DNA from: Bacteroidales bacterium
GTDB taxonomy: Bacteria; Bacteroidota; Bacteroidia; Bacteroidales; F082
Length of the DNA: 64,000 nt
Direction: 5' to 3'
NCBI GenBank assembly: GCA_015488735.1
Contig: WFNG01000055.1
Span: forward strand, 6,185 to 70,184
In this document: positions 51,828 to 63,707 of the stretch, piece by piece
Layout of the letters: each line of letters starts with the position of its first letter
Numbering within the stretch: position 1 is the stretch's first letter
Made by a program: the position numbers and the translations under genes
The notes under the pieces: generated by a model
Seen by the model: the letters and a program-made list of their open reading frames with translations, nothing else
Database searches by the model: none
What the model was told of the DNA's origin: nothing

Positions 51828-53114
51828 TTAATCCAGTTCCTTTTTATAGGTTTCGGGCATAAAGAGCAAAGTAATAATGGCTATGATAACAGAAGCAATT
51901 AAGTAGTACACAGGCATTAAGATATTACCGTTACTGATTTTAATCAACCAGACTGAAACGAGGGGCGTGGTGCCTCCAAACAGGGCCAGTGCAATATTAT
52001 AGCTCACGGAAAGTCCTGTGTATCTTACTTTTGCAGGAAAGGCTTCGGTCATGATAGCGGGAATAACTCCCTGGAAAAGGCCTTCAAAAATGGAAAACAG
52101 AAGCATGGCAGCCAGAATAGCCCAATAAGTTTTTTCAAACATCAGCAAAAAGAGCGGATACGAGAAAACCACAAATCCGATTAACGAAATGAAAAGAACC
52201 GTTTTTCTTCCTATTTTGTCGCTTAGATGGCCAAACAGAGGTATTATCAGCATCATAAAAATTATGGCAATGGTGTGAATAGAAAGCGCATCGTCAAGTT
52301 TTATATGGAGAAATGTATGAAGGTAGGAGGGTAGAAAAATAAATATCAGATAAACGGAGACACCAAATGCCCAACTCAACATAATTATTTTAAATGATTG
52401 CATTTTGTAATGTGCAAAAAACTCTGCCAATGGTATTTTGTAGGTTCTTTCTTCTTCCATTATCTTTTTAAAGTGCTCATCATCAGTCATATCTTTTCGG
52501 AGGTAAAGTCCGGCAATGCCAATAAAAGCGCCAAAAAGAAACGGAATTCTCCAGCCAAAACTATTTACTTGCTGTGTAGAAAACATCCATGTAATAAGGG
52601 CTGCTATGCCTGCACCGATGAGCATTCCGCCAAATACGCCAAAAGTTGTCCAGCTGCCATAAAAACCCCTTTTCCCATGAGGGGCTTTTTCCACAAGAAA
52701 CGAAATGGAGCCGGTAAACTCCCCGCCAACCGAAAGTCCCTGAAAAAGTCTCAGGATGACCAGCAACAAAGCTGAATACCAACCAATACTGGCATAAGTA
52801 GGAAGAAATCCTATGAGTGTTGTGGGAATAGCCATCATAAGAATGGAAATTAAAAGTGCTTTTTTTCTGCCTTGCTTATCACCAATGTGTCCAAAAATAA
52901 TTCCCCCGATGGGTCGCATAAGATAACCCGCTGCAAATATGCCGAAAGCAGAAATTAGTTGGACAATCTTATCCTCGTGAGGGAAAAACTGTGATCCGAT
53001 AATGGTCGCAAAAAAACCATAAACGGTGAAATCGTACCATTCCATTATGTTTCCTGAGAATCCGGCAATCAGCGAACGTTTGTCGAAGATGGGTTGTGGA
53101 GTATCTTTAACCAT
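51828..53114 (-). CDS. MFS transporter (MHS/ProP family)
   Basis: GNIMEWYDF..YG, MRPIGG..FG.IGD..GRK, QG.SVGGE, LSDKIGRK. Confidence 0.92.
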   Translation of the reverse strand: MVKDTPQPIFDKRSLIAGFSGNIMEWYDFTVYGFFATIIGSQFFPHEDKIVQLISAFGIFAAGYLMRPIGGIIFGHIGDKQGRKKALLISILMMAIPTTLIGFLPTYASIGWYSALLLVILRLFQGLSVGGEFTGSISFLVEKAPHGKRGFYGSWTTFGVFGGMLIGAGIAALITWMFSTQQVNSFGWRIPFLFGAFIGIAGLYLRKDMTDDEHFKKIMEEERTYKIPLAEFFAHYKMQSFKIIMLSWAFGVSVYLIFIFLPSYLHTFLHIKLDDALSIHTIAIIFMMLIIPLFGHLSDKIGRKTVLFISLIGFVVFSYPLFLLMFEKTYWAILAAMLLFSIFEGLFQGVIPAIMTEAFPAKVRYTGLSVSYNIALALFGGTTPLVSVWLIKISNGNILMPVYYLIASVIIAIITLLFMPETYKKELD

Positions 53115-53247: not shown

Positions 53248-53799
53248 TTATACTTTTTGAACAACTTCCACACTTTTCATCCCGAGGTTAATGGCGTCTT
53301 CGTTGAGAGGAATGAGTTTGTGGTGGCGTTCGGGAAGAGATTTTTTCAATCCTTTAATAACATTTTCCAGTTTAACAATGGGTTTTATTTTCAGATAAGC
53401 ACCCAGTACAATCATGTTGAAAATTTTGGTATTTCCCATTTCTGCAGCTTTTTTGGCCCCTTCCACTTTAAAAATATTGATGTCTTTGCGTGAAGGTTGT
53501 CGTGAGATGCCGTTAGGGTCATAAAGCAATGTACCGCCGGGTTTTACTTCCGGCTCAAATTTATCCATAGATTGCTGGTTTAGGATGATGGCCGTGTCGT
53601 AAGCCCTTAAAATAGGGGAGCTGATGCGTTCATCGCTGACAATTACTGTTACATTGGCAGTGCCACCACGCATTTCAGGTCCATAAGAAGGCATCCAGCT
53701 TACTTCCTGATCTTGCATAATTCCCGAATAAGCCAAAATTTTCCCCATGGAAAGAACACCTTGTCCACCAAAACCGGCTATGATTATTTCTTCAGTCAT
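53248..53799 (-). CDS. 2-oxoacid:ferredoxin oxidoreductase gamma subunit
   Basis: AGFGGQGV, PSYGPEMRGG, NMIVLGA. Confidence 0.92.
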   Translation of the reverse strand: MTEEIIIAGFGGQGVLSMGKILAYSGIMQDQEVSWMPSYGPEMRGGTANVTVIVSDERISSPILRAYDTAIILNQQSMDKFEPEVKPGGTLLYDPNGISRQPSRKDINIFKVEGAKKAAEMGNTKIFNMIVLGAYLKIKPIVKLENVIKGLKKSLPERHHKLIPLNEDAINLGMKSVEVVQKV

Positions 53800-53822
53800 T
53801 TTTTCGTCGTTTTAAGATTAAT

Positions 53823-54611
53823 CTATTTTACTAACTGGCCATCCACTTTAATATCGCCAATGGGATAAAACGGAAACATGTTTTCTTCCATCCAGTTGTT
53901 GGCATCTACCGGGGTCATTTTCCAGCCGGAGTTGCAGTTGGAAACAACCTCTACGAAAGATAAACCAGGTGCATTATTCAACTGATTTTGAAAGGCTTTC
54001 TTTATGGCCCGTTTGGCCTTCCGAACTGCTGAGGGAGTCTCAACAGACTGACGTGTAACATAGTATGTTCCCGGAAGCTGGGCAACAAGTTCTGTAATTT
54101 TCAGAGGATGTCCCATGAGTTCCGGGTCTCTTCCGTAAGGAGAAGTGGAAGTTTTCATCCCTTCCAAAGTGGTGGGTGCCATTTGTCCTCCGGTCATACC
54201 ATAAATACCGTTGTTAATAAAGACAATCACGAATTTTTCACCACGGTTACAGGCATGAATGGTTTCTGCAGTGCCAATGGCTGCCAAATCTCCGTCGCCC
54301 TGATAGGTGAAAACAATGTTGTCGGGCCACAACCTTTTAATGGCGGTAGCCAGTGCGGGAGCACGGCCATGAGCAGCTTCCTGCATGTCGATGTTCATAA
54401 ACTCGTAAGCCAGTACCGAACAACCTACAGGGGCAACACCCACGGTTTCGTGTTCCTTGCCCATTTCTTCAATAACCTCCATGATGAGGCGATGGGTGGT
54501 TCCATGACCACAGCCCGGACAGTAGCTAAGCTCTTTGTCTGTCATCAACCTGGTTTTTTGATAGACCAGATTTTCAGGTTTGATAATATCTTTTAAAGCT
54601 ATCTCTGACAT
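53823..54611 (-). CDS. 2-oxoacid:ferredoxin oxidoreductase beta (TPP-binding) subunit
   Basis: YCPGCGH, GC, HGRA, GDGD...NN TPP motif. Confidence 0.92.
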   Translation of the reverse strand: MSEIALKDIIKPENLVYQKTRLMTDKELSYCPGCGHGTTHRLIMEVIEEMGKEHETVGVAPVGCSVLAYEFMNIDMQEAAHGRAPALATAIKRLWPDNIVFTYQGDGDLAAIGTAETIHACNRGEKFVIVFINNGIYGMTGGQMAPTTLEGMKTSTSPYGRDPELMGHPLKITELVAQLPGTYYVTRQSVETPSAVRKAKRAIKKAFQNQLNNAPGLSFVEVVSNCNSGWKMTPVDANNWMEENMFPFYPIGDIKVDGQLVK

Positions 54612-54614
54612 GGC

Positions 54615-55700
54615 TTATTCTCCTATAATTTTTTGTTCAAGGGCCTCAACAACTTCTTCCGGAGAATGAATTACTCCGCCAAGGCGCCCAAAATGTTCAA
54701 CTTTCACTTTGCCGTTTACGGCCAACCGTACATCTTCAACCATTTGGCCGGCACTCATCTCTACTGAGAGGAATCCTTTTACTCCCTGTTCTACCATGTT
54801 CTGAATTGTTTTGGTAGGGAATGGCCATAAAGTTATGGGGCGTAGCAGCCCGACTTTAATGCCTTTATCACGTAAAAGCTTAACTGCTTTTAGCGAAACG
54901 CGTGCACTGGTACCATAAGCTACCAACACATATTCTGCATCATCGCACTGCAATTCTTCATAACGGACTTCTTTTTCTTCAATTTCGCGATATTTTTCCT
55001 GAAGGTGATGGTTGTGATCTTCCAGTTTTTGCGGATCCAAATCCAGCGAAGTCAGGATTCTCCTTTCACCATTTTTAAGTTTACCGTTTGTTGCCCAGGA
55101 ATAACGTGCTTTAACTTCTTTATCGGACAAGCGGGGAACAGGTTCAAAAAATTCAACTTTTTCCATCATTTGTCCAATGGCGCCATCAGAGAGAATCATG
55201 GCTGGATTTCTGTATTTGAATGCCAAATCGTAGGCTACAGGAACGAAATCGGCCATTTCCTGTACCGAAGATGGGGCCAGCACAATGAGTCTGTAATCGC
55301 CATGGCCACCGCCTTTTGTGGATTGGAAATAGTCGGATTGAGCCGGCTGAATGTCGCCCAGTCCCGGACCGCCCCGAACCACGTTTACAATTAAAATCGG
55401 GATTTCTGCACCGGCAATGTAAGACAAGCCTTCCTGCATGAGGCTGATGCCCGGACTGGAAGAGGAGGTAACTACTTTTTTACCGCTTCCTCCGCCACCA
55501 TAAAGCATATTGATGGAAGCAACTTCACTTTCGGCCTGTAACACAACCATTCCCGTTGTTTCCCAGGGTTTGGAAGCCATCAGGTATTCCAGAACTTCTG
55601 ATTGGGGGGTAATGGGATAACCAAAATAGCCATCCGTGCCGGCACGAATAATGGCTTCGGCCAGTGCCTCATTACCTTTCATTAATTTTATTTCACCCAT
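54615..55700 (-). CDS. vorB: 2-oxoacid:ferredoxin oxidoreductase alpha subunit (VorB type)
   Basis: MKGNEALAEA, GYPITPQSE, QAESE, SSSPGISLMQE, RGGPGLG. Confidence 0.9.
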   Translation of the reverse strand: MGEIKLMKGNEALAEAIIRAGTDGYFGYPITPQSEVLEYLMASKPWETTGMVVLQAESEVASINMLYGGGGSGKKVVTSSSSPGISLMQEGLSYIAGAEIPILIVNVVRGGPGLGDIQPAQSDYFQSTKGGGHGDYRLIVLAPSSVQEMADFVPVAYDLAFKYRNPAMILSDGAIGQMMEKVEFFEPVPRLSDKEVKARYSWATNGKLKNGERRILTSLDLDPQKLEDHNHHLQEKYREIEEKEVRYEELQCDDAEYVLVAYGTSARVSLKAVKLLRDKGIKVGLLRPITLWPFPTKTIQNMVEQGVKGFLSVEMSAGQMVEDVRLAVNGKVKVEHFGRLGGVIHSPEEVVEALEQKIIGE

Positions 55701-55725
55701 ATCTTTTTGTTTTATTTTTTGATAA

Positions 55726-55953
55726 TTATTTAACTTTTATCCTGTAAACGGTAATGACACCATCAGGACATACCACGGCACAGTTGGTGCAACCGGTACA
55801 AACATCCGGATTCTCCATAAAGGCAAAATGATAACCTTTGCCGTTTACTTCTTTTGCCAAAGCAATTACATCGGTAGGGCAGGCAGGGACGCAAACGCCA
55901 CAACCTTTACACTTCTCGATATCAACTACTATGGCGCCTTTCACTTTTGCCAT
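55726..55953 (-). CDS. 2x[4Fe-4S] ferredoxin (delta subunit)
   Basis: CKGCGVCVPACP and CTGCTNCAVVCP. Confidence 0.93.
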   Translation of the reverse strand: MAKVKGAIVVDIEKCKGCGVCVPACPTDVIALAKEVNGKGYHFAFMENPDVCTGCTNCAVVCPDGVITVYRIKVK

Positions 55954-56167
55954 AACTAATGTTTTTATATGGTTTTTAAATTTTTGCACGAAATTACACT
56001 TTTCACAGCGTATTTTTGCTAAGTAATTTACTGATTTTCTTCAGCGGCTGTTATTTATAAAGATTTTAAATATACAAGTATCTGAAAAAACAATTAGTTA
56101 TGAATTAATTTATTAACAATTGGGTGAGCGTTTACTCAAATCAGCACAGGCTAAAACTACCTGGCGC

Positions 56168-57319
56168 TTAATGCAGCCAGTAGGCCATACCCACACCTAT
56201 GAAAGTGGCAATGGCATAACCAAGGGTACCACAGAGTATTGCCGGGATAACAAGTGATTTCCAACGGCGGCCCACAGCCATGGCTGCAGCGGTGGTGGGA
56301 CCACCCATGTTGGCGTTGGAAGCAATGACAATCTCAGCCAAATCGAGATTGAAAAGCCGGCCGAAACCTAAAATAAAAATGAGGTGCACCAATAATATTA
56401 ATCCGGCAAAGAGAAAAAGTATGGGGCCAACTTTCAAGACTACCATGATGTTGGCACTGGCACCAATGGCCGCAAAAAATATCTGCATGAGGAAAGTTCC
56501 TATCTGGTCGGCACCACGAATGGCGTTCATTTGTTTGGGGAAGAGTGTTGCCACGGCAACCACCAACAGCGTAATAATCAATATGGCACTACCCTGTATC
56601 CCGATAAGGTGCTGTAAATAAAAACTAATTGCTGCGGCTAACAAGCCAATACTTAATCCTTTGCCCATGTCAAGCAAATCGGGATTCTCGTAATTAGCTT
56701 CGATAATTTCATTTGTCGTAAGTTCTTTTTCCGCATTTTGCTGATGGTAGTTTTTAAAATGCTTTTTTAAGAAACCAACTCCCGGTAAGGCAAAAAGGAT
56801 GAGGAAATAAATGGTCATAACCAGATTATCGGCAGCGACACCGGCGGTGAGCAAATCGCTGGAATGCAAATGAAGTGCTTCAGAAGTAGCCACATAATTC
56901 ATAGAGCCGCCAATGTAGGTAGAACAGAAGATGCCAGCCAGTTTCCAGCCTTCTTCACCCAGTGGAATCGTTTTGAAAGCGATAATGGTTCCTACGATGG
57001 TTCCCACTGCGCCAATACCAAAAGCAATGAGTGTTGGCCCGGCTTCTTTGATGATTCTGCGAATGTTGGCTTTGAACAACAGCAAAGGTACAGCCAACGG
57101 CACAAGATACGACCACACAATATCGTATGTGGGTGATTGGATAGGAATAATGTAAAGATTGGAAAGAATAAAAGTGGTCAGAATAGAAATGACCACAGCA
57201 GAAACCTTGCCGCCCCATTTGGTTTTTTGCTCCGCCCAAATACCAAAAGTAGCGGAAAGAATAAGAATGGCCCAAAGCATCCACGACTGGTCAGGACCTA
57301 TGATGGCGTGTTGAAACAT
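56168..57319 (-). CDS. DUF819-family membrane protein
   Basis: YIGGSMNY, ASNANMGGP.TAAA motifs; about 11-12 TM helices. Confidence 0.88.
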   Translation of the reverse strand: MFQHAIIGPDQSWMLWAILILSATFGIWAEQKTKWGGKVSAVVISILTTFILSNLYIIPIQSPTYDIVWSYLVPLAVPLLLFKANIRRIIKEAGPTLIAFGIGAVGTIVGTIIAFKTIPLGEEGWKLAGIFCSTYIGGSMNYVATSEALHLHSSDLLTAGVAADNLVMTIYFLILFALPGVGFLKKHFKNYHQQNAEKELTTNEIIEANYENPDLLDMGKGLSIGLLAAAISFYLQHLIGIQGSAILIITLLVVAVATLFPKQMNAIRGADQIGTFLMQIFFAAIGASANIMVVLKVGPILFLFAGLILLVHLIFILGFGRLFNLDLAEIVIASNANMGGPTTAAAMAVGRRWKSLVIPAILCGTLGYAIATFIGVGMAYWLH

Positions 57320-57404
57320 ATATAAAAATTAAGGCGCAAATGTAGAAGAATTTTCAAAGAATAAAAAGGAGGGAAAAAAGACATTCCATACGCAGGGAAA
57401 AGTT

Positions 57405-57420
57405 GCCACGAATGCACGAA
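57405..57420 (+). repeat. Half-site of the 17586-17628 element
   Basis: gccacgaatgcacgaa matches gccacgaatacacgaa (17587-17602) at 15 of 16 positions. Confidence 0.5.
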
Positions 57421-57445
57421 TAACCTCTTTATTTCTCCCACTGCC

Positions 57446-57640
57446 GCTCATCGGGTTGTTGCCATTGAAATTAAATCTTCCTCTACTCCCCGGCCAGGAC
57501 GTGGGTTTTGGCAGGCTCTCGAAGATGTGAAGGCTACTGAATCCTTTATTATTGCGCCTGTTCGCATGCCTTTTCCATTGAAAGACAATGTGATGATGTA
57601 TTCATTAGAGGATTTTCTAAGCAAGGAGATTGATAAATGA
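57446..57640 (+). pseudogene. C-terminal remnant of a COG1373-type ATPase (AAA+/DUF4143) gene
   Basis: Frame reads HRVVAIEIKSSSTPRPGRGFWQALEDVKATESFIIAPVRMPFPLKDNVMMYSLEDFL...stop. No start codon precedes it, and an in-frame stop lies at 57362. Confidence 0.65.
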
Positions 57641-57653
57641 GCTTTTCGTTCTG

Positions 57654-58574
57654 TTATTTCTGAATAAAGTTCAGGGCATTTAACGCGGCCACTGTTCCGT
57701 CTGACACGGCTGTGGTGATCTGGCGGTAACGTTTGGCACAGCAGTCGCCGGCGGCAAACACTCCTTCAAGGTTTGTTTGCAGGTTTTCATCCGTGATAAT
57801 CTCGTGCCATTTGTTAAGGTTTACTGAGCTGTTTTGCAAAGCCTGTGTGTTGGCTTCGTAACCAACGAAGATGAAAACACCATCGATGGCTTTATCATAA
57901 ACTCTCCCGGTTTTCAGGTTCTTGTATTGAATGCCGCGAAGACTTTCATCGCCATAAAACCCGGTTATGTGTGCCTCCATGATGTAATCGATCTTCGGGT
58001 TGGCTTTGGCCTCTTCCACAGCGTGTTCAAAAGCCTGGAAATGGTCAAACTCATGCAGGATGGTTACTTTGCTGGCATATTTTGTGAGAGCAACGGCCTC
58101 TTCGAGTGCCGAGTTGCCGCCGCCTACTACAATAATCTCCTTGTCCTGAAAAAAGTCACCATCACAGGTGGCACAGTAGGAAATGCCCCGGCCTTTGAAT
58201 TCATTTTCACCGGACACATTGAGCATGCGCGAACGACCACCGGTAGCCAGTATGACTGCCGGGGCTGAAAATGTTTCTCCGTTTTCGAGCGTTGCCGTTT
58301 TTTCTTTTCCCTCCAGTTGCAATCCGGCCAGTTTTACATTCGATTTAATGACACAGCCGAAGTTTTTTGCCTGTTTTTTCATGGCGGATGCCAGCTGATA
58401 ACCGCTGATGCTTTCGATACCTGGATAATTGGCAATTTCGTAGGTAAGTACCATTTGTCCGCCGGGCATTCCTGTGTCCAGAATCAGTATTTTGGCTTTG
58501 GACCGGCCGAGATAAATACCGGCGGTGAGACCTGCCGGACCTCCTCCCAGCACAATAACATCAAAATGGTTCAT
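57654..58574 (-). CDS. trxB: Thioredoxin-disulfide reductase (atypical cofactor site)
   Basis: GGGPAG, CATCDG, GGGNSA, GVFAAGD; HRRDxxR is replaced by HEFDHFQ. Confidence 0.88.
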   Translation of the reverse strand: MNHFDVIVLGGGPAGLTAGIYLGRSKAKILILDTGMPGGQMVLTYEIANYPGIESISGYQLASAMKKQAKNFGCVIKSNVKLAGLQLEGKEKTATLENGETFSAPAVILATGGRSRMLNVSGENEFKGRGISYCATCDGDFFQDKEIIVVGGGNSALEEAVALTKYASKVTILHEFDHFQAFEHAVEEAKANPKIDYIMEAHITGFYGDESLRGIQYKNLKTGRVYDKAIDGVFIFVGYEANTQALQNSSVNLNKWHEIITDENLQTNLEGVFAAGDCCAKRYRQITTAVSDGTVAALNALNFIQK

Positions 58575-58667
58575 AGTATCCTTATTTTAAGTGTTTTGAT
58601 GTGTCTAAAAGTAAAAAAGAGCAACGACGTGTTTTTTTTCTTTTTAGGCAACTCCAAAAGTATGAAA

Positions 58668-59012
58668 CTATTTAAACTCCCGGTCGAGAATTTCCGTAAT
58701 TTGTTCTTTGGATTGGATGCTGCTTGTGGCTGCTACCACGCTACCGTTTTTGTAATAAACAGTGAAGGGAAGTCCCATGAAGCCCCGGCATTGTGGAAGC
58801 TCACGGATGACTCTTGCTTCAGGACTGTCAAACAGCATGTCACGGAATTCAACATGGGTATATTCGTCCTGCAGCTCTTCCATAATATCATAAACGGGCA
58901 CACACATGGGACCCATGCGGCCACAGCAAACCATGACGTTTTCATGATCCTTTAAAATTTCATTCAGCTCTGCTTCGCTGTCAACGTGTTTTAAATTTGT
59001 GGGCAATGTCAT
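58668..59012 (-). CDS. Thioredoxin-fold protein with non-canonical CCGRMGPMC site
   Basis: Trx topology with cis-Pro loop GLPFT and YYKNG..V; directly upstream of trxB. Confidence 0.8.
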   Translation of the reverse strand: MTLPTNLKHVDSEAELNEILKDHENVMVCCGRMGPMCVPVYDIMEELQDEYTHVEFRDMLFDSPEARVIRELPQCRGFMGLPFTVYYKNGSVVAATSSIQSKEQITEILDREFK

Positions 59013-59366
59013 CTTTTTCCTTTTTTAATGATATATCACAGCACCCAATCATAAATTATGCCATGCTGCGAAATTGTAAACTTATTAACAGACAAGTGGC
59101 ATTTTTTAAAATATATAATTAATAGTTTATTTATTGCTGACAGTATCAACCCAAAAGATGTCAGGCTATATGGAAGGTTTTCGCCATTTTATCATCAAAT
59201 TATACCTTAATTTTTTATTTTTTTTTTCAATAATGGCAGTAAATTAATGAACGTGATAATTCATATCTGCCAGTCTGGCCGCCCTTACGTTGTAGTTGTA
59301 ACAGACGTTACACATTGTCAGTTGGAGATGCAACTGTTTTGAAGAAGCAAAAGTTTTTCCGGCAGC

Positions 59367-60035
59367 TTACACGCTCAGTTTTTTGCTGATTTCGTCAAGA
59401 TAATATTGAAGTTGTTTCCGCCGGTATTGCATCACCCAGCGAGGATGGGGCAGTGGGATAATCTCTCCAAAAATCTTTAACTCTTCATTTAACCTTTGCA
59501 GATAAGTGAAATTCTTTCCGTTTCCCAGGCAAAAACATTTGTCAGTACGGATACCCAATGCTACCTGATGAACCATGTTTTTCACGATAAAAGATTTGAG
59601 GCTTTGTTCCAGCAACCGGTCATCGTAATAGTTAAAGTTCTTCCCGTTTTTCACAAATCCCAGTGGACTGATGGCACCGATAAAATAATTTCTGTAAAAT
59701 GGAATAACGCCCCCCATGTTTTCTATTAGCAAATAGATAAACTGTGAAGAGAGCTCGGCTTTTTTGTCAAAGTTGTTGACGATACCGCAGGATTTTTCCA
59801 GATGGACAGGGTCGGTGAAAGGGATGCCGGTTACACCTGCACCGAATCTTCCGGGGTTGATACCGAAAATAATGCGGCGGGTTTTTTGGTCGTTGTAGAA
59901 TTTGCTATAAAAAGCTTTACAGGCAGCCACTGTTTCCGGCCGCGAATAGGGATTCAGGATTTCAACATCTTCCGGCAGTTTCCTGTCCGGTGCCAGTTGT
60001 TTGTAAAATGCCATTGTCCTCTCCGCGAAAGTCAT
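59367..60035 (-). CDS. Uracil-DNA glycosylase superfamily protein (SMUG2/DUF4918-like)
   Basis: NPY, FGINPGRFG.GVTGIPFTD, KNFNYYD, LPHPR. Start moved to 60035; the ORF-track extension overlaps the upstream gene. Confidence 0.85.
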   Translation of the reverse strand: MTFAERTMAFYKQLAPDRKLPEDVEILNPYSRPETVAACKAFYSKFYNDQKTRRIIFGINPGRFGAGVTGIPFTDPVHLEKSCGIVNNFDKKAELSSQFIYLLIENMGGVIPFYRNYFIGAISPLGFVKNGKNFNYYDDRLLEQSLKSFIVKNMVHQVALGIRTDKCFCLGNGKNFTYLQRLNEELKIFGEIIPLPHPRWVMQYRRKQLQYYLDEISKKLSV

Positions 60036-60036
60036 G

Positions 60037-60489
60037 TTATTGGATTTTGGATGAAGAGTGGTCGTAAACAATGCGCCAGCCGTTTTTTGTTTTGCGGAAA
60101 AGCAAGGTGAAAAGTCCTTCGGGATGACTTTTTTCTTTGGTGAGTTCCCAATGGCCTGATACGAAAGCTGCTGTGGGGGAGAGGACACGGATTTTCACGT
60201 TGGAGAACCAGAGATGTCCCATGGCTTTTTTATCGGGATAGGATTTTTTGTAACGTGCCAGACTTTGTTTCCAGCCAAAAGTAGTGCTGCAGTTGCCATC
60301 GAATTGCAGCGAATCACTTTTTTCGTAACAGTTCATGTAAGCCGTGATATCACTATTGTTCCAGTCGGTCGCTGATTGATCCAACACTTTCTGTACGGCG
60401 GCTTTAATCTCTTGCTTGTTTGTCTCCTGTCGGCAGGCTCCGAACAGAAAAACGGACGACAATAATATGAAGAGGTATTTTTTTGTCAT
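60037..60489 (-). CDS. NTF2-like (DUF4440/YybH) lipoprotein
   Basis: Lipobox FGAC, WN..DI..YM..Y, G.FTL.F.K...GW.IVYDHSS. Confidence 0.88.
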   Translation of the reverse strand: MTKKYLFILLSSVFLFGACRQETNKQEIKAAVQKVLDQSATDWNNSDITAYMNCYEKSDSLQFDGNCSTTFGWKQSLARYKKSYPDKKAMGHLWFSNVKIRVLSPTAAFVSGHWELTKEKSHPEGLFTLLFRKTKNGWRIVYDHSSSKIQ

Positions 60490-60497
60490 AAGCTACT

Positions 60498-61199
60498 TTA
60501 TCCCCGTTTGCTAATTTCTTTAAGCCTCTCGATATCTATTATATTAATGGCTTTACCATTTATTTCAATGATATTCTCCTTTTTTAATTCTGTGAGCAGT
60601 CTTACTGTTGTTTCGGTTGACAGGCCTGCAAAAGCAGCAATATCTTTTCTGGACAAGTAAGGAAAGATATTGTCTTTATAAAGATTCTTATCGCATAAAT
60701 AAAGTAACGTGTCGGCTAATCGGCCATGCATTTGTTTGTTGCCAAGGCTTTGGATTTTGTCAAAAAGCTGCTTTTCATTCTTGCAATAGCGTTTGATTAT
60801 TTCCGAAGCAAAGGCACCATTGTTGATGAGCAGTTTTCTGAAACTTTCTTTTTCAATAAGGCAGACAGTAGAATCTGTTAATGCGACAGCAGAATAATGA
60901 TAAATATTATCACCGTATATTGAAGAAAAGCCAATGAAATCAGAGGTCTTTAATATTTTTATGTTGATGTTTTTGCTGTTGGGGCTTTCCATGTATAATT
61001 TAACCAGCCCATCGGAAATATATAGCAGATAGGCTGCAAAGGCGCTCTGTTTACAAATATTTTCTCCTTTCCGGTACAAAAGATGGGTTTTGTTTTGGTT
61101 TATAAAAGTAATTTCTGAAGGGATCAATTTTGAAAAACACCTGGCACTTTTTGGGCAGTTTAAACAATTTGTTGTTTTTGAATCTTTCATTACCGGCAA
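60498..61199 (-). CDS. Crp/Fnr-family regulator with FNR-type Cys cluster
   Basis: CLNCPKSARC, ALTDSTVC, HTH LSRKDIA.FAGLSTET..R.L. Confidence 0.9.
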   Translation of the reverse strand: MPVMKDSKTTNCLNCPKSARCFSKLIPSEITFINQNKTHLLYRKGENICKQSAFAAYLLYISDGLVKLYMESPNSKNINIKILKTSDFIGFSSIYGDNIYHYSAVALTDSTVCLIEKESFRKLLINNGAFASEIIKRYCKNEKQLFDKIQSLGNKQMHGRLADTLLYLCDKNLYKDNIFPYLSRKDIAAFAGLSTETTVRLLTELKKENIIEINGKAINIIDIERLKEISKRG

Positions 61200-61354: not shown

Positions 61355-62242
61355 ATGAAAACGATATTAGTACCAACCGATTTTTCAGAGCCCGCCCTGT
61401 ATGCTTTAAAAATAGCTGCAAGTATTGCTAAAAAGACGTATGCTCAAATAAGACTTGTGCATGCCTATAATTTGCCATCATCAGAAGCTCGTGAAGCTGT
61501 TAACTTCAAGGAGTTTTATAAACAGGTATCCATCGACAAAGAGAAAAAGCTCGGTGCATTAACTAAAATGAGTTTTCTAAACGGAATCACTGTCAGTAAG
61601 CATTTTGAAGATAACATGAAACCATGGGAATTGGTTAATGATGAAAAATACAAAAATGCTGATTTAATTGTAATTGGATCACATGGGAATAGCGGCTACC
61701 AAAAGCTTTTCATCGGTTCCAATACAGAAAAAATAATCAGAATGGCCGATGCACCTGTTTTGACTGTCAAGAAAAGCGATGATAATTTTGACATTAAAAA
61801 CATGGTCTTTGCATCAGATTTTAGTGAAGAAACTTACCCTGTTTTTGAAAAAATAAAATTCTTTACAGAACTTTATAAAATGCATGTTGATTTACTTAAG
61901 GTGATTACACCCCATAATTTTGAGAAATCAAGTACAAGCAAAGAATTAATGGATAGTTTTGCAAAGAGTTTTAAATTAACAAATTACACGATAAATGTTT
62001 ACAATGCAGGGAGTATTGAAAACGGCATTCTCGGTTTTAGTAATGAGCAAAAAACCGACCTGATAGCCATCGAAACCCACGGTAGATCGGGAATTAATCA
62101 TCTTATTGGTGGAAATTTGGCTGAGAATATTGCCGATGATGCAAAACTTCCCGTTTTAACCATCAAGATTAAAGAAGATAATCAAACTCACAAAAAGGCG
62201 CAACATCCAACAAAAAATTATGCCAATTGGGGGACAGAATAA
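61355..62242 (+). CDS. Universal stress protein (tandem UspA domains)
   Basis: ILVPTDFSE, DLIVIGSHG.SG...FIGSNTE, second domain IETHGRSG. Confidence 0.92.
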   Translation: MKTILVPTDFSEPALYALKIAASIAKKTYAQIRLVHAYNLPSSEAREAVNFKEFYKQVSIDKEKKLGALTKMSFLNGITVSKHFEDNMKPWELVNDEKYKNADLIVIGSHGNSGYQKLFIGSNTEKIIRMADAPVLTVKKSDDNFDIKNMVFASDFSEETYPVFEKIKFFTELYKMHVDLLKVITPHNFEKSSTSKELMDSFAKSFKLTNYTINVYNAGSIENGILGFSNEQKTDLIAIETHGRSGINHLIGGNLAENIADDAKLPVLTIKIKEDNQTHKKAQHPTKNYANWGTE

Positions 62243-62402
62243 AACAATGACTAAAAAAGCTGTACGTAAGATAAGCAAAGTATGTAGATTTGAATTAATT
62301 ACTTTTAAAAATTATAGAAATGGCCGATTATAACAGAAGTAAAGTTTTACCGGCTATCTTGAAAATATAAATAAATTTATCTAACCTTTAAAAAACAAAA
62401 AA

Positions 62403-62756
62403 ATGAAAGTATTATTAGCAACAGAAGGAAATACGCTGAACAGTAAAATTGCCAAAAGATTTGGAGAAGCTCCTTATTATTTAATTTACAATAGTGATAC
62501 CAAAGAAACAGAAGCCAGAGTGAATCCAGGTCATGACGATAACCATTCCGGATTAATTGATCTGGTTAATGAAGGAGTTTTGTATTATATTGTGGGAAAT
62601 ACGGGACCAAATGCATTTGATGTTTTAAACAACAGAAATGCAGAACTTTATCTGGCAAGAGGAACTGTTGCCAAAGATGCTCTGGATGCTTTTCTGAATA
62701 AAAAATTGGAAAGATTAACAAAAGCCACACTTAAAAGACCCATTCGTAACCATTAA
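62403..62756 (+). CDS. NifB/NifX-family (FeMo-cofactor-binding-like) protein
   Basis: MKVLLATEG, RFGEAPYYLIY, G..G.NA...L. Confidence 0.85.
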   Translation: MKVLLATEGNTLNSKIAKRFGEAPYYLIYNSDTKETEARVNPGHDDNHSGLIDLVNEGVLYYIVGNTGPNAFDVLNNRNAELYLARGTVAKDALDAFLNKKLERLTKATLKRPIRNH

Positions 62757-62768
62757 AAATAAAGAACT

Positions 62769-63707
62769 ATGTATAAATATATTTTTGGCCCGGTACCTTC
62801 GCGACGTCTTGGCATGTCACTCGGAGTAGACTTAGTTCCTAAAAAAGTTTGTTCACTTGATTGTGTATATTGTGAAGTAGGTCAAACCACAAAGTTAACA
62901 ACTGAAAGAAGGGAATATATTCCGTATGATAAGGTTATAGCCGAATTGGAAGATTATTTTGTAAACAATCCCAATCCGGATTATATTACATTTTCCGGAT
63001 CAGGTGAACCTACGCTTAACATAAGGATTGGTGAAGTTTTGCAATTTGTCAAGCAAAAGAAGCCCGATATTCCTGTGGCTGTTTTAACCAACGGAACGTT
63101 ATTGTATGATGAAAATGTCCGGAAGGAATTGCTGGATGCTCATGTTGTCCTTCCTTCGCTTGATGCAGCAACCGAGAGTACTTTTCAAAAGATAAACCGC
63201 CCCGCACAAGGGCTTACTGCCGATAAATATATTCAGGGACTCATTGATTTTAGAAAAGATTATGCAGGACAAATATGGCTCGAAGTATTTATTATTCCCG
63301 GATATAATGACAATGCCAAAGATTTAAATGCATTAAAAGAAGCATTTGGAAAGATACAGCCGGATCAAGTTCAGCTAAATACACTCGATCGGCCCGGTAC
63401 GGTGAAAGGCATTAGTCCGGCCAGCCATGAAAGCTTGCAGAAAATTATTGATTTTTGGGGACTTCCAAATGTGGAAATAATTGCAGCAGCACCGGAAAGA
63501 AAAGAATTAAAATCGTACAGGAAAGATGCGGAAACGGCCATATTGGGAACAATAACAAGAAGACCCTGTACCGTTGACGACCTTGTGAAAATTCTCGGGT
63601 TACATATTAATGAGATTAACAAATATCTTGATGTATTGGAAGGGGAAGGTAAAATCCAGTCAGTGTGGCAGGACAGGGGCGTGTTTTATCAGATAAATAA
63701 CAAGTAA
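62769..63707 (+). CDS. Radical SAM protein (COG0731-like), paralogue 2
   Basis: FGPVPSRRLG.SLG, CSLDCVYC, TFSGSGEPTL; colinear with 8589-9524. Confidence 0.92.
   Translation: MYKYIFGPVPSRRLGMSLGVDLVPKKVCSLDCVYCEVGQTTKLTTERREYIPYDKVIAELEDYFVNNPNPDYITFSGSGEPTLNIRIGEVLQFVKQKKPDIPVAVLTNGTLLYDENVRKELLDAHVVLPSLDAATESTFQKINRPAQGLTADKYIQGLIDFRKDYAGQIWLEVFIIPGYNDNAKDLNALKEAFGKIQPDQVQLNTLDRPGTVKGISPASHESLQKIIDFWGLPNVEIIAAAPERKELKSYRKDAETAILGTITRRPCTVDDLVKILGLHINEINKYLDVLEGEGKIQSVWQDRGVFYQINNK

What the first reader, a model, noticed from the sequence alone, without database searches (positions are those of the whole stretch)
57654..58574. Thioredoxin reductase that has lost the NADPH-specificity arginines
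Seen: the H-R-R-D-x-x-R motif reads H-E-F-D-H-F-Q, while GGGNSA and CATC are intact; there is also an extra GDCC near the C-terminus. Established: those arginines bind the 2'-phosphate of NADPH, and variants lacking them use NADH or ferredoxin. Inference: an NADH- or ferredoxin-driven reductase. A ferredoxin-reducing 2-oxoacid oxidoreductase operon lies about 1.7 kb downstream on the same strand.
Basis: partly seen in the sequence, partly recalled or inferred. Interest (0 to 1): 0.55.

Follow-up and report, generated by a model that had tools for sequence, protein, structure and literature searches.

The report
Arginine-less thioredoxin reductase with odd partner
This is a second, accessory thioredoxin reductase that has replaced all three arginines that bind NADPH and always sits behind an unusual thioredoxin-like protein with no CxxC site. 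The pair is widespread in anaerobes and unstudied, and it most likely runs on NADH rather than on ferredoxin.

Summary
The gene lies on the minus strand (57654-58574, 306 aa). It has GGGPAG, CATC and GGGNSALEEA, and reads H-E-F-D-H-F-Q exactly where solved NADPH enzymes read H-R-R-D-x-F-R.

- **A selected state, not decay.** The replacement defines a tight, well-supported clade. H174 and Q180 are invariant; position 175 is Q, E, M or I.
- **The dinucleotide site is kept.** The pyrophosphate motif and the CATC region are the most conserved parts of the protein.
- **An accessory enzyme.** The genome also holds a canonical HRRD TrxB.
- **A fixed partner.** Directly upstream (58668-59012) lies a thioredoxin-fold protein with an invariant CCGRMGPMC and no CxxC. 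The two are adjacent in 9 of 9 orthologous loci and 72 of 80 further loci. At least 596 species genomes carry the partner.
- **No ferredoxin link.** The 2-oxoacid:ferredoxin oxidoreductase operon lies beside the pair in only 2 of 80 loci. The defining features of the known ferredoxin-driven and NAD(P)H-independent classes (FFTR, DTR, TRi) are not met.

Best reading: NADH to FAD to CATC to the dedicated partner, targets unknown (about 0.55). This scan met the same module before on other DNA. I found no publication on it. It is a new variant of a known kind.

The parts
57654..58574 (-). Accessory low-Mr thioredoxin-reductase paralog, 306 aa (P0001). It has FAD GGGPAG, redox CATC(DGDFF), pyrophosphate motif GGGNSALEEA, HEFDHFQAF in place of HRRDxFRA, and GDCC.
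   Evidence: - Frame and motifs.
- TIGR01292 scores 327.2 bits, below its cut-off of 343.45; Pfam Pyr_redox_2 2.8e-56.
- Best solved relatives are canonical NTRs, 5mh4 at 1.4e-72.
- AF2 model has pLDDT 93.9 and TM 0.92-0.94 to NTR structures.
- Motif mapping.
- Family conservation.
58668..59012 (-). Thioredoxin-fold partner protein, 114 aa, with no CxxC. Cysteines are at 29, 30, 37 and 75. The motif ENVM-CCGRMGPMC-[VI]PVY is invariant, and the cis-Pro loop G-[LI]-P-F is kept.
   Evidence: - No Pfam hit even at E<=10; only weak matches to TrxA and to solved thioredoxins, E about 1e-3.
- AF2 model pLDDT 88.3, thioredoxin fold, TM 0.78 to E. coli Trx chains.
- 55 invariant positions in 10 sequences.
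- Directly upstream of the reductase in 9/9 and 72/80 loci.
58575..58667 (-). 93-nt spacer between partner and reductase. No terminator-like site, so the two genes are probably co-transcribed (inferred).
   Evidence: No terminator-like hairpin anywhere in 57200-59450. No Rfam family in 56000-60500. In related loci the spacing is mostly under 150 nt, on the same strand.

Best explanation
The two genes at 58668-59012 and 57654-58574 (minus strand) form a dedicated, accessory thiol-disulfide relay. The flavoenzyme is a true low-Mr thioredoxin-reductase-type disulfide reductase (FAD plus a CATC dithiol).

Its second dinucleotide site is intact, but the 2'-phosphate pocket has been rebuilt from H-R-R-D-x-F-R into the neutral, aromatic H-(Q/E/M/I)-(F/L)-D-x-(F/W)-Q. 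It most likely takes hydride from NADH, or strongly prefers NADH to NADPH.

Electrons would then pass from FAD to Cys134/Cys137, and on to the co-encoded thioredoxin-fold protein. That protein has lost the CxxC pair. It presumably works through Cys37, at the N-terminus of helix 2 where thioredoxin has its nucleophilic Cys, together with the invariant Cys29-Cys30 doublet (or Cys75). The final targets are unknown.

The canonical NADPH TrxB elsewhere in the genome does the housekeeping.

**Shown:** the anatomy, the conservation, the pairing, the paralogy and the folds.
**Inferred:** the donor (NADH), the direction of electron flow to the partner, and which cysteines are redox-active.
For: 1. **Exact positional replacement of the three arginines** against solved NADPH enzymes and E. 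coli TrxB.
2. **The dinucleotide site is under the strongest selection in the protein.** Mean column entropy is 0.23 for the pyrophosphate motif (residues 148-160) and 0.22 for the CATC region, against 1.12 for the whole protein in 67 family members. GGGNSALEEA occurs in 111 of 121 clusters. Valette 2017 reports that this motif is highly conserved in NADPH (TR1) and NADH (TR3) enzymes but degenerate in the NAD(P)H-independent TRi.
3. **The rebuilt pocket resembles that of an NADH enzyme of the same superfamily.** Counted from the first Gly of GxGxxG/A, positions 24-27 read:
   - E-M-F-D in E. coli lipoamide dehydrogenase;
   - H-E-F-D, H-Q-F-D or H-M-L-D in this family;
   - H-R-R-D in TrxB.

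   That these are the positions changed to switch glutathione reductase to NADH (Scrutton, Berry and Perham 1990) rests on my memory.
4. **The clade is coherent.** It has SH-aLRT 99. It sits within a larger arginine-less clade (SH-aLRT 95) together with Firmicutes reductases, many of them fused to an N-terminal thioredoxin domain. So arginine-less enzymes of this lineage do serve thioredoxin-fold partners.
5. **The partner is fixed.** It lies directly upstream on the same strand in 9/9 Bacteroidota orthologs and 72/80 further loci. The reductase's first thioredoxin-docking Phe is replaced by an invariant Asp: CATCDGDFF in 120 of 121 clusters, against CATCDGFF in TrxB. This fits a changed partner surface.
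6. **It is always an extra copy.** The window's own genome has an HRRDQLRA TrxB on contig 232. All nine sampled genomes with an ortholog also have a roughly 40%-identical canonical copy.
7. **There are precedents** for NADH-driven TrxR-type enzymes with a dedicated atypical redoxin: DvTR3/Trx3 and TmTR (PMC5627308), and C. pasteurianum Cp34/Cp9 (PMC3720550).
Against: - No assay exists, and no member of the clade or of its sister groups could be tied to a characterised enzyme here.
- The classical acidic position at the end of beta-2 (index 24) is still His, as in NADPH enzymes.
- Glu175 is not invariant (Q 35, E 25, M 5, I 2 of 67). The textbook NADH signature is therefore absent.
- Thermoplasma TrxR also lacks the arginines and has no known donor, so loss of HRRD does not by itself mean NADH. 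My recollection, not checked here, is that Thermoplasma TrxR keeps a GxGxxA motif.
- The invariant aromatic stretch F-D-x-F-Q-A-F could instead be a docking surface for a protein donor.
- I have no independent evidence that the partner is the substrate, and it has no CxxC.
Confidence: 0.55

Rival explanations
1. A ferredoxin- or flavodoxin-driven reductase that arose independently of the clostridial and cyanobacterial FFTRs. The invariant F-D-x-F-Q-A-F surface would dock a low-potential protein donor, such as the ferredoxin reduced by the nearby 2-oxoacid oxidoreductase.
For: - The arginines are gone, as in FFTR-type enzymes.
- The carriers are anaerobes with ferredoxin-reducing enzymes. A Kor/Vor operon lies 1.7 kb downstream here and in L033 and L035.
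- The replaced pocket is more conserved than merely 'not binding phosphate' would require.
Against: - Kor adjacency occurs in only 2 of 80 loci and ferredoxin-like ORFs in 6 of 80.
- The pyrophosphate motif is nearly invariant, whereas NAD(P)H-independent TRs have lost or degraded it.
- Sequence similarity is 2e-31 to FFTR 6gna against 1e-72 to NTRs.
- There is no C-terminal aromatic tail: the model ends with helix 286-305, and cyanobacterial FFTR needs that tail.
Confidence: 0.15
2. Still a pyridine-nucleotide enzyme with relaxed or dual specificity. It would use NADPH as well as NADH, as reported for some atypical TRs, and the real specialisation would lie in the partner rather than in the donor.
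For: - The dinucleotide site and His174 are intact.
- Position 175 varies between Q, E, M and I, which argues against a strict ribose-hydroxyl lock.
- The partner and the docking residue Asp140 are the invariant novelties.
Against: No positive charge remains anywhere in 174-182 in any of the 67 family members, so there is nothing to neutralise a 2'-phosphate. In 25 of the 67 an acidic Glu sits at the first arginine position and should repel it.
Confidence: 0.12
3. The pair is not a protein-disulfide relay. The CC...C protein would carry a metal, an Fe-S centre or a persulfide/polysulfide. The flavoenzyme would then service that chemistry, for example sulfur or metal(loid) handling in sulfidic habitats.
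For: - There is no CxxC. Cys29, Cys30, Cys37 and His9 are invariant, as are five methionines.
- Carriers are mostly sediment, hydrothermal and sulfidic-cave MAGs.
- Vicinal Cys pairs act as metal- or Se/S-handling centres in related flavoenzymes (MerA, high-Mr TrxR). This is from my own knowledge.
Against: - The partner model is an ordinary thioredoxin fold with the cis-Pro loop, and a Cys sits at the helix-2 N-terminus.
- The reductase keeps the G-R-G and CATC elements of a thioredoxin reductase.
- No sulfur- or metal-handling gene recurs beside the pair.
Confidence: 0.1

Closest known systems
Canonical low-Mr NADPH thioredoxin reductase (TrxB/NTR, TIGR01292; e.g. L. lactis 5mh4, D. radiodurans 2q7v, S. 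aureus 4gcm, E. coli TrxB)
   Same: Same fold (TM 0.92-0.94), length, FAD motifs, CATC in the pyridine-nucleotide domain, GxGxxA motif, G-R-G and YRQ elements. Identity is 32-45%.
   Different: - All three 2'-phosphate arginines are replaced.
- The first thioredoxin-docking Phe is replaced by Asp.
- It scores below the TIGR01292 cut-off (327.2 against 343.45).
- It is always a second copy beside a true TrxB.
- It is always paired with a thioredoxin-fold protein that has no CxxC.
Desulfovibrio vulgaris TR3/Trx3, and the TR3/dcTR1 groups of Valette et al. 2017 (PMC5627308)
   Same: An accessory TR paralog that keeps the pyrophosphate motif, has lost HRRD and has a dedicated non-canonical thioredoxin. 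DvTR3 prefers NADH. Arginine-less Firmicutes TRs with the H-Y-C and M/P signatures of these groups are the sister lineages in my tree.
   Different: - This clade keeps I-S-Y (not H), keeps G-R-G (not CxQ) and has Asp (not P or M) at the docking position.
- TR3 and dcTR1 were reported only from Deltaproteobacteria and Clostridia.
- The partner here lacks CxxC altogether.
- I could not retrieve the DvTR3 sequence, so the relationship is by description only.
Clostridium pasteurianum Cp34/Cp9/Cp20 and Thermotoga maritima TrxR with its glutaredoxin-like protein
   Same: An NADH-dependent TrxR-type flavoenzyme encoded next to a small dedicated redoxin that it reduces (PMC3720550; PMC5627308).
   Different: Those redoxins have CxxC (C-P-[YW]-C), and in C. 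pasteurianum a peroxiredoxin target lies in the operon. Here there is no CxxC, and no conserved target gene.
Ferredoxin-dependent flavin thioredoxin reductases (clostridial FFTR 6gna; cyanobacterial FFTR/DTR 5j60) and DvTRi (5nii)
   Same: Low-Mr TR fold with CxxC and without HRRD.
   Different: - They are much more distant in sequence (2e-31, 1.3e-49 and 2e-30, against 1e-72 for NTRs).
- They lack or have degraded the GxGxxA motif.
- DTR needs a C-terminal Trp tail that is absent here.
AhpF (E. coli, S. typhimurium)
   Same: A TrxR-like core that prefers NADH (my knowledge) and serves a dedicated thioredoxin-fold module. It has no arginines at the 2'-phosphate site (L-E-F-A-P-E-M-K) and a non-Phe residue (Pro) at the docking position. 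TIGR03140 matches at 253 bits.
   Different: AhpF carries its thioredoxin-fold partner as a fused N-terminal domain with CxxC, and has the acid at index 24. Here the partner is a separate gene without CxxC, and index 24 is His.

Membership tests
Low-Mr thioredoxin reductase (TrxB, TIGR01292) | FAD-binding GxGxxG, plus a redox-active CxxC in the second Rossmann domain | tested here: met
   GGGPAG at 10-15 and CATC at 134-137. Both are invariant in alignments A2 and A3.
Low-Mr thioredoxin reductase (TrxB, TIGR01292) | Pyrophosphate motif GGGxxAxE | tested here: met
   GGGNSALEEA at 151-160. It occurs in 111 of 121 clusters, with column entropy 0.23.
Low-Mr thioredoxin reductase (TrxB, TIGR01292) | 2'-phosphate motif HRRDx[F/L]R | tested here: not met
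   Reads HEFDHFQ here, and H-[QEMI]-[FL]-D-x-[FW]-Q across the family.
Low-Mr thioredoxin reductase (TrxB, TIGR01292) | Score above the curated equivalog cut-off | tested here: not met
   327.2 bits against a cut-off of 343.45. The genome's other copy scores 400.9.
Low-Mr thioredoxin reductase (TrxB, TIGR01292) | Thioredoxin-docking G[R/K]G and Phe-Phe after CxxCDG | tested here: inconclusive
   G-R-G is present. The first Phe is an invariant Asp: CATCDGDFF against CATCDGFFY.
Low-Mr thioredoxin reductase (TrxB, TIGR01292) | Reduces thioredoxin with NADPH | not testable with these tools
   Needs enzyme assays.
Clostridial FFTR | Clusters with FFTRs and lacks both NAD(P)H motifs (GxGxxA and HRRxxxR) | tested here: not met
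   GxGxxA is kept. 6gna and 6gnd score only 2e-31 and 5e-30, against 1e-72 for NTRs. Definition taken from PMC10880999.
Cyanobacterial FFTR / DTR | [quoted passage not shown] | tested here: not met
   The protein ends at residue 306, right after helix 286-305. Orthologs have short, non-conserved tails without a conserved aromatic residue. Definition from PMC8154056.
DvTRi-type NAD(P)H-independent TR | TQ/NGK in place of HRRD, and a degenerate GEGxxAxN | tested here: not met
   HEFD and an intact GGGNSALE. 5nii scores only 2e-30. Definition from PMC5627308.
TR3 / dcTR1 (NADH-type, Valette 2017) | Pyrophosphate motif kept and 2'-phosphate motif lost | tested here: met
   definition.
TR3 / dcTR1 (NADH-type, Valette 2017) | His in place of Ser in V-S-Y; CxQ (TR3) at the G[R/K]G site; Pro (TR3) or Met (dcTR1) at the docking Phe | tested here: not met
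   I-S-Y, G-R-G and Asp here. The sister sequences P0129, P0132 and P0179 do show H-Y-C with M or P.
AhpF | N-terminal double thioredoxin-fold domain fused to the TrxR-like core | tested here: not met
   306 aa with no N-terminal extension. No fused member of this clade was found among proteins of 537-2000 aa; the best identity there was 48%.
Thioredoxin (PF00085), for the upstream partner | Thioredoxin fold with a cis-Pro loop | tested here: met
   AF2 pLDDT 88.3. Foldseek TM 0.78 to E. coli Trx chains, probability 1.00. G-[LI]-P-F is conserved.
Thioredoxin (PF00085), for the upstream partner | WCGPC / CxxC active site, and a Pfam match | tested here: not met
   There is no C-x-x-C anywhere; the cysteines are at 29, 30, 37 and 75. 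No Pfam family at E<=10.

The most novel reading that the evidence does not exclude
The pair is a new kind of thiol relay. An NADH-linked TrxR-type flavoenzyme would reduce a thioredoxin-fold protein whose redox or ligand centre is a Cys-Cys doublet plus a single helix-N-terminal Cys (CC-x6-C), not a CxxC. That could give it chemistry that ordinary thioredoxins lack, for example a vicinal or long-range disulfide, or persulfide/polysulfide or metal(loid) handling. The module is spread by selection and transfer across anaerobic Bacteroidota, Ignavibacteria, Chlorobiota, Calditrichota, Spirochaetes and Planctomycetes.
Probability: 0.25. Interest if true: 0.7.

Novelty: new variant of a known kind. 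Interest (0 to 1): 0.48.

Why it matters
Thioredoxin systems are usually annotated as 'NADPH thioredoxin reductase', and several sources give members of this clade exactly that name. That label is almost certainly wrong here. This is a second, differently fuelled thiol-reducing system, carried by at least about 600 species of anaerobes.

- If the system runs on NADH, it links disulfide reduction directly to the catabolic NADH pool of fermenters. That changes how redox budgets and oxidative- or sulfide-stress responses are modelled for Bacteroidales and their relatives.
- **Thioredoxin chemistry.** The partner protein shows that a thioredoxin fold can be kept under extreme constraint (about half of its positions are invariant across phyla) with no CxxC. 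That makes it a testable case of alternative thioredoxin chemistry.
- **Annotation.** The clade offers a clean sequence signature, H-x-[FL]-D-x-[FW]-Q together with CATCDGDFF, for correcting automatic annotation.

Tried and rejected
- **Complex prediction** (reductase alignment + partner alignment + FAD): no verdict (score 0.01, controls not run). It counts neither for nor against binding.
I took genomic context from the genome search and the search for related loci instead.
- **A conserved operator upstream of the partner gene.** A scan for palindromic 5-mer pairs over 74 upstream regions found nothing above the shuffled controls. The perfect palindrome TGATATATCA just before the start codon in the window is not conserved.
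- **Terminators and structured RNAs.** The terminator scan and Rfam scan around the pair found nothing.
- **Conserved neighbours.** The recurrent ones (NlpC/P60, TonB-dependent receptor, 7TM-HD, WbqC, CoaE, UDG, DUF819) look like local synteny of related Bacteroidales, not functional partners.
- **A Kor or ferredoxin link:** rejected (2 of 80 and 6 of 80 loci).
- **A Crp/Fnr link.**
  - The window's regulator (60498-61199) has a close ortholog (1e-50) divergently adjacent to the module in one Muribaculaceae MAG (L106).
  - In four of five other carrier genomes only weak matches (26-28% identity) were found, on other contigs; the fifth had no match at E<=1e-15. The link is not general.
- **Fused ('Rosetta stone') forms** of this clade: none found among longer proteins. 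The longer hits are TIGR03143-type TrxR fusions carrying a Thioredoxin_3 (PF13192) domain, and those I could read keep basic residues.
- **Sequences of DvTR3, T. maritima TrxR and Cp34** could not be retrieved through the tools, so they could not be placed in the tree.
- **Model coordinates are not exposed**, so Cys-Cys distances in the partner could not be measured.
- **GDCC as an extra redox centre:** rejected, because the second Cys is found only in the nearest relatives.
Full report
**1. What is there**

The ORF at 57654-58574 lies on the minus strand and encodes 306 aa, P0001. It is a Pyr_redox_2 protein (2.8e-56). Its best NCBIfam model is thioredoxin-disulfide reductase TIGR01292, at 327.2 bits, which is below the curated cut-off of 343.45.

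The sequence shows GGGPAG (10-15), KGRGISYCATCDGDFF with CATC at 134-137, GGGNSALEEA (151-160), HEFDHFQAFEHA (174-185) and AAGDCCAKRYRQ.

Ungapped HMMER alignments of the 46 residues after the GGGN motif place HEFDHFQA exactly on HRRDAFRA / HRRDEFRA of solved NADPH enzymes. Alignment with E. coli K-12 TrxB confirms this. E175, F176 and Q180 stand where E. coli has R176, R177 and R181. Valette et al. 2017 call this motif selective for the 2'-phosphate of NADPH (PMC5627308).

**2. A selected state that defines a clade**

- Among the 121 closest 90%-identity clusters (68-100% identical), 108 read EFDHFQA, 111 read GGGNSALEEA and 120 read CATCDGDFF.
- In 67 full-length members drawn from other species, H174 and Q180 are invariant. 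The other positions are:
  - 175: Q (35), E (25), M (5) or I (2);
  - 176: F (61) or L (6);
  - 177: D in 62;
  - 179: F (64) or W (3).
- No basic residue occurs at any of these positions.
- A search of 1.84 billion 50%-identity representatives collapses the clade to a single full-length representative (62% identity, 397 bits). The next hit drops to 46% identity and 286 bits.
- In a maximum-likelihood tree the clade has SH-aLRT 99. It sits inside a 23-row clade (SH-aLRT 95) whose other members are also arginine-less: HQFDQLQ, HQFDNFQ, HQLDRFK and HEFGEFQ.
- Those sister sequences are from Firmicutes. Many are fused to an N-terminal thioredoxin domain, and they show the H-Y-C and M/P signatures that Valette et al. 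describe for TR3/dcTR1.
- GDCC is not a family trait. It occurs in 5 of 121 clusters, against 88 with GDCR.

**3. An accessory enzyme**

The window's own genome (2.88 Mb, 94.6% complete) holds a second, canonical TrxB on contig 232. That copy is 310 aa, reads HRRDQLRA, and scores 400.9 bits on TIGR01292. Among 200 genomes sampled from the phylum, nine have a 60-65% identical ortholog. Each of these nine also has a roughly 40% identical canonical copy.

**4. A fixed partner**

The gene directly upstream (58668-59012, minus strand, 93 nt away) encodes 114 aa.

- Its only sequence matches are weak ones to thioredoxin, with no Pfam hit at E<=10.
- AlphaFold2 gives a confident thioredoxin fold: pLDDT 88.3, and TM 0.78 to E. 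coli thioredoxin.
- It has no C-x-x-C. Its cysteines are at 29, 30, 37 and 75.
- ENVM-CCGRMGPMC-[VI]PVY is invariant, and 55 positions are invariant across ten sequences.
- In the model, strand 25-31 carries the Cys-Cys doublet and helix 2 begins at residue 38. Cys37-Val-Pro-Val therefore occupies the place of Cys32-Gly-Pro-Cys35. This reads as a monothiol site with the doublet nearby.
- HMMER instead aligns G-P with G-P, so this register is an inference.

The partner lies directly upstream of the arginine-less reductase in 9 of 9 Bacteroidota orthologous loci and in 72 of 80 loci from a scan of species-representative genomes. The carriers are Bacteroidales, Lentimicrobiaceae, Ignavibacteria/Melioribacteraceae, Chlorobiota, Calditrichota, Spirochaetaceae, Sedimentisphaerales and a Sedimentibacter MAG.

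The ESM Atlas holds an unnamed 'putative thioredoxin' cluster of 1,768 members with no common Pfam family.

No terminator-like site separates the two genes. The invariant Asp at the first thioredoxin-docking Phe of the reductase fits a co-adapted interface.

**5. Which donor**

*For a pyridine nucleotide, and hence NADH:*

- The pyrophosphate motif and the CATC region are the most conserved stretches of the protein: entropy 0.23 and 0.22, against a mean of 1.12. Published NAD(P)H-independent TRs have a degraded or missing GxGxxA.
- The protein is much closer to NTRs than to FFTR, DTR or TRi. The model superposes on NTR structures at TM 0.92-0.94.
- It has no DTR-type C-terminal Trp tail.
- Counted from the first Gly of the fingerprint, positions 24-27 read H-(E/Q/M)-(F/L)-D. 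E. coli lipoamide dehydrogenase, an NADH enzyme, reads E-M-F-D, and TrxB reads H-R-R-D.

*Against certainty:*

- The classical acidic position (index 24) is still His.
- Glu175 is replaceable.
- Thermoplasma TrxR lacks the arginines and has no known donor.

*The ferredoxin argument from context fails.* The Kor/Vor operon lies beside the module only in the two closest relatives (2 of 80 loci). Ferredoxin-like ORFs occur in 6 of 80 loci.

I put NADH, or a strong NADH preference, at about 0.55. A protein donor such as ferredoxin gets 0.15, relaxed NAD(P)H use 0.12, and non-disulfide chemistry 0.10.

**6. Comparison with what is known**

The module works most like three systems: DvTR3/Trx3, TmTR with its glutaredoxin-like protein, and C. 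pasteurianum Cp34/Cp9. All three are NADH-type TR paralogs with dedicated redoxins.

It is not a member of TR3/dcTR1 by their published signatures. It is not an FFTR, DTR, TRi or AhpF either (see the membership table). Valette et al. found their atypical groups only in Clostridia and Deltaproteobacteria. My literature searches found nothing on this Bacteroidota-centred clade or on the CC-x6-C protein.

Earlier notes of this scan describe the same module on other DNA. Two follow-ups reached similar conclusions. So it is not new to the scan, although it appears unpublished.

**7. Verdict**

The finding is real, and an ordinary degenerate gene is ruled out. It is an accessory, probably NADH-linked TrxR-type reductase with a dedicated thioredoxin-fold partner that lacks CxxC. 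It is a new variant of a known kind. Interest is moderate, and lies mostly in the partner's chemistry and in the wide, mis-annotated distribution.

Noticed in passing
window 60498-61199 (-), and L106:5143-5925: The Crp/Fnr-family regulator 1.5 kb upstream of the pair has a close ortholog (phmmer 1.1e-50) that is divergently adjacent to the same Trx-like/TrxR module in a Muribaculaceae MAG. In four of five other carrier genomes only weak matches (26-28% identity) were found, on other contigs; the fifth had none. Any regulatory link is therefore lineage-specific at best.
   Followed up: partly
window 61355-63707 (+): A tandem-Usp protein, a NifX/NifB-fold protein (Nitro_FeMo-Co, PF02579) and a radical-SAM protein are transcribed divergently from the Crp/Fnr gene. 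Earlier scan notes report NifX-like genes inside the same thioredoxin module in other genomes. Here I found NifX-like genes near the pair in only 2 of 80 loci (Ignavibacteriaceae L110 and L111).
   Followed up: partly
window 57320-57653: A 334-nt non-coding gap lies between the reductase and the DUF819 gene. An earlier first-reader note calls it a remnant of a COG1373 ATPase gene. No terminator-like site was found in it.
   Followed up: no
window 59367-60489 (-): The UDG-superfamily ORF (GTG start at 60188) overlaps the SnoaL-like ORF (60037-60489) by about 150 nt. The true UDG start is probably further downstream. UDG and DUF819 flank the pair only in the nearest relatives (6 and 7 of 80 loci).
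   Followed up: no
P0131, P0136, P0321-P0337 and similar: A large Firmicutes group of thioredoxin reductases of about 425 aa has an N-terminal thioredoxin domain. In the members I inspected the HRRD arginines are missing (HQFDKFQA, HQFKELQA). It is sister to the clade studied here and, as far as I could find, equally uncharacterised as to donor.
   Followed up: partly
window 53248-55989 (-): A four-gene 2-oxoacid:ferredoxin oxidoreductase operon (delta, alpha, beta, gamma). The alpha subunit scores above the cut-off on NF005507 (VorB subfamily, 534 bits against 399). An MFS metabolite/H+ symporter gene (51828-53114) follows.
   Followed up: no
L045, L048, L050, L053, L054, L055, L061, L063, L066, L091 (about 4 kb upstream of the pair): In a sub-lineage a lipoprotein-type thioredoxin (signal peptide with a lipobox, WC[AKR]PC) and a cytosolic thioredoxin (WCQPC) sit together about 4 kb upstream of the module. 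They are absent from this window.
   Followed up: no
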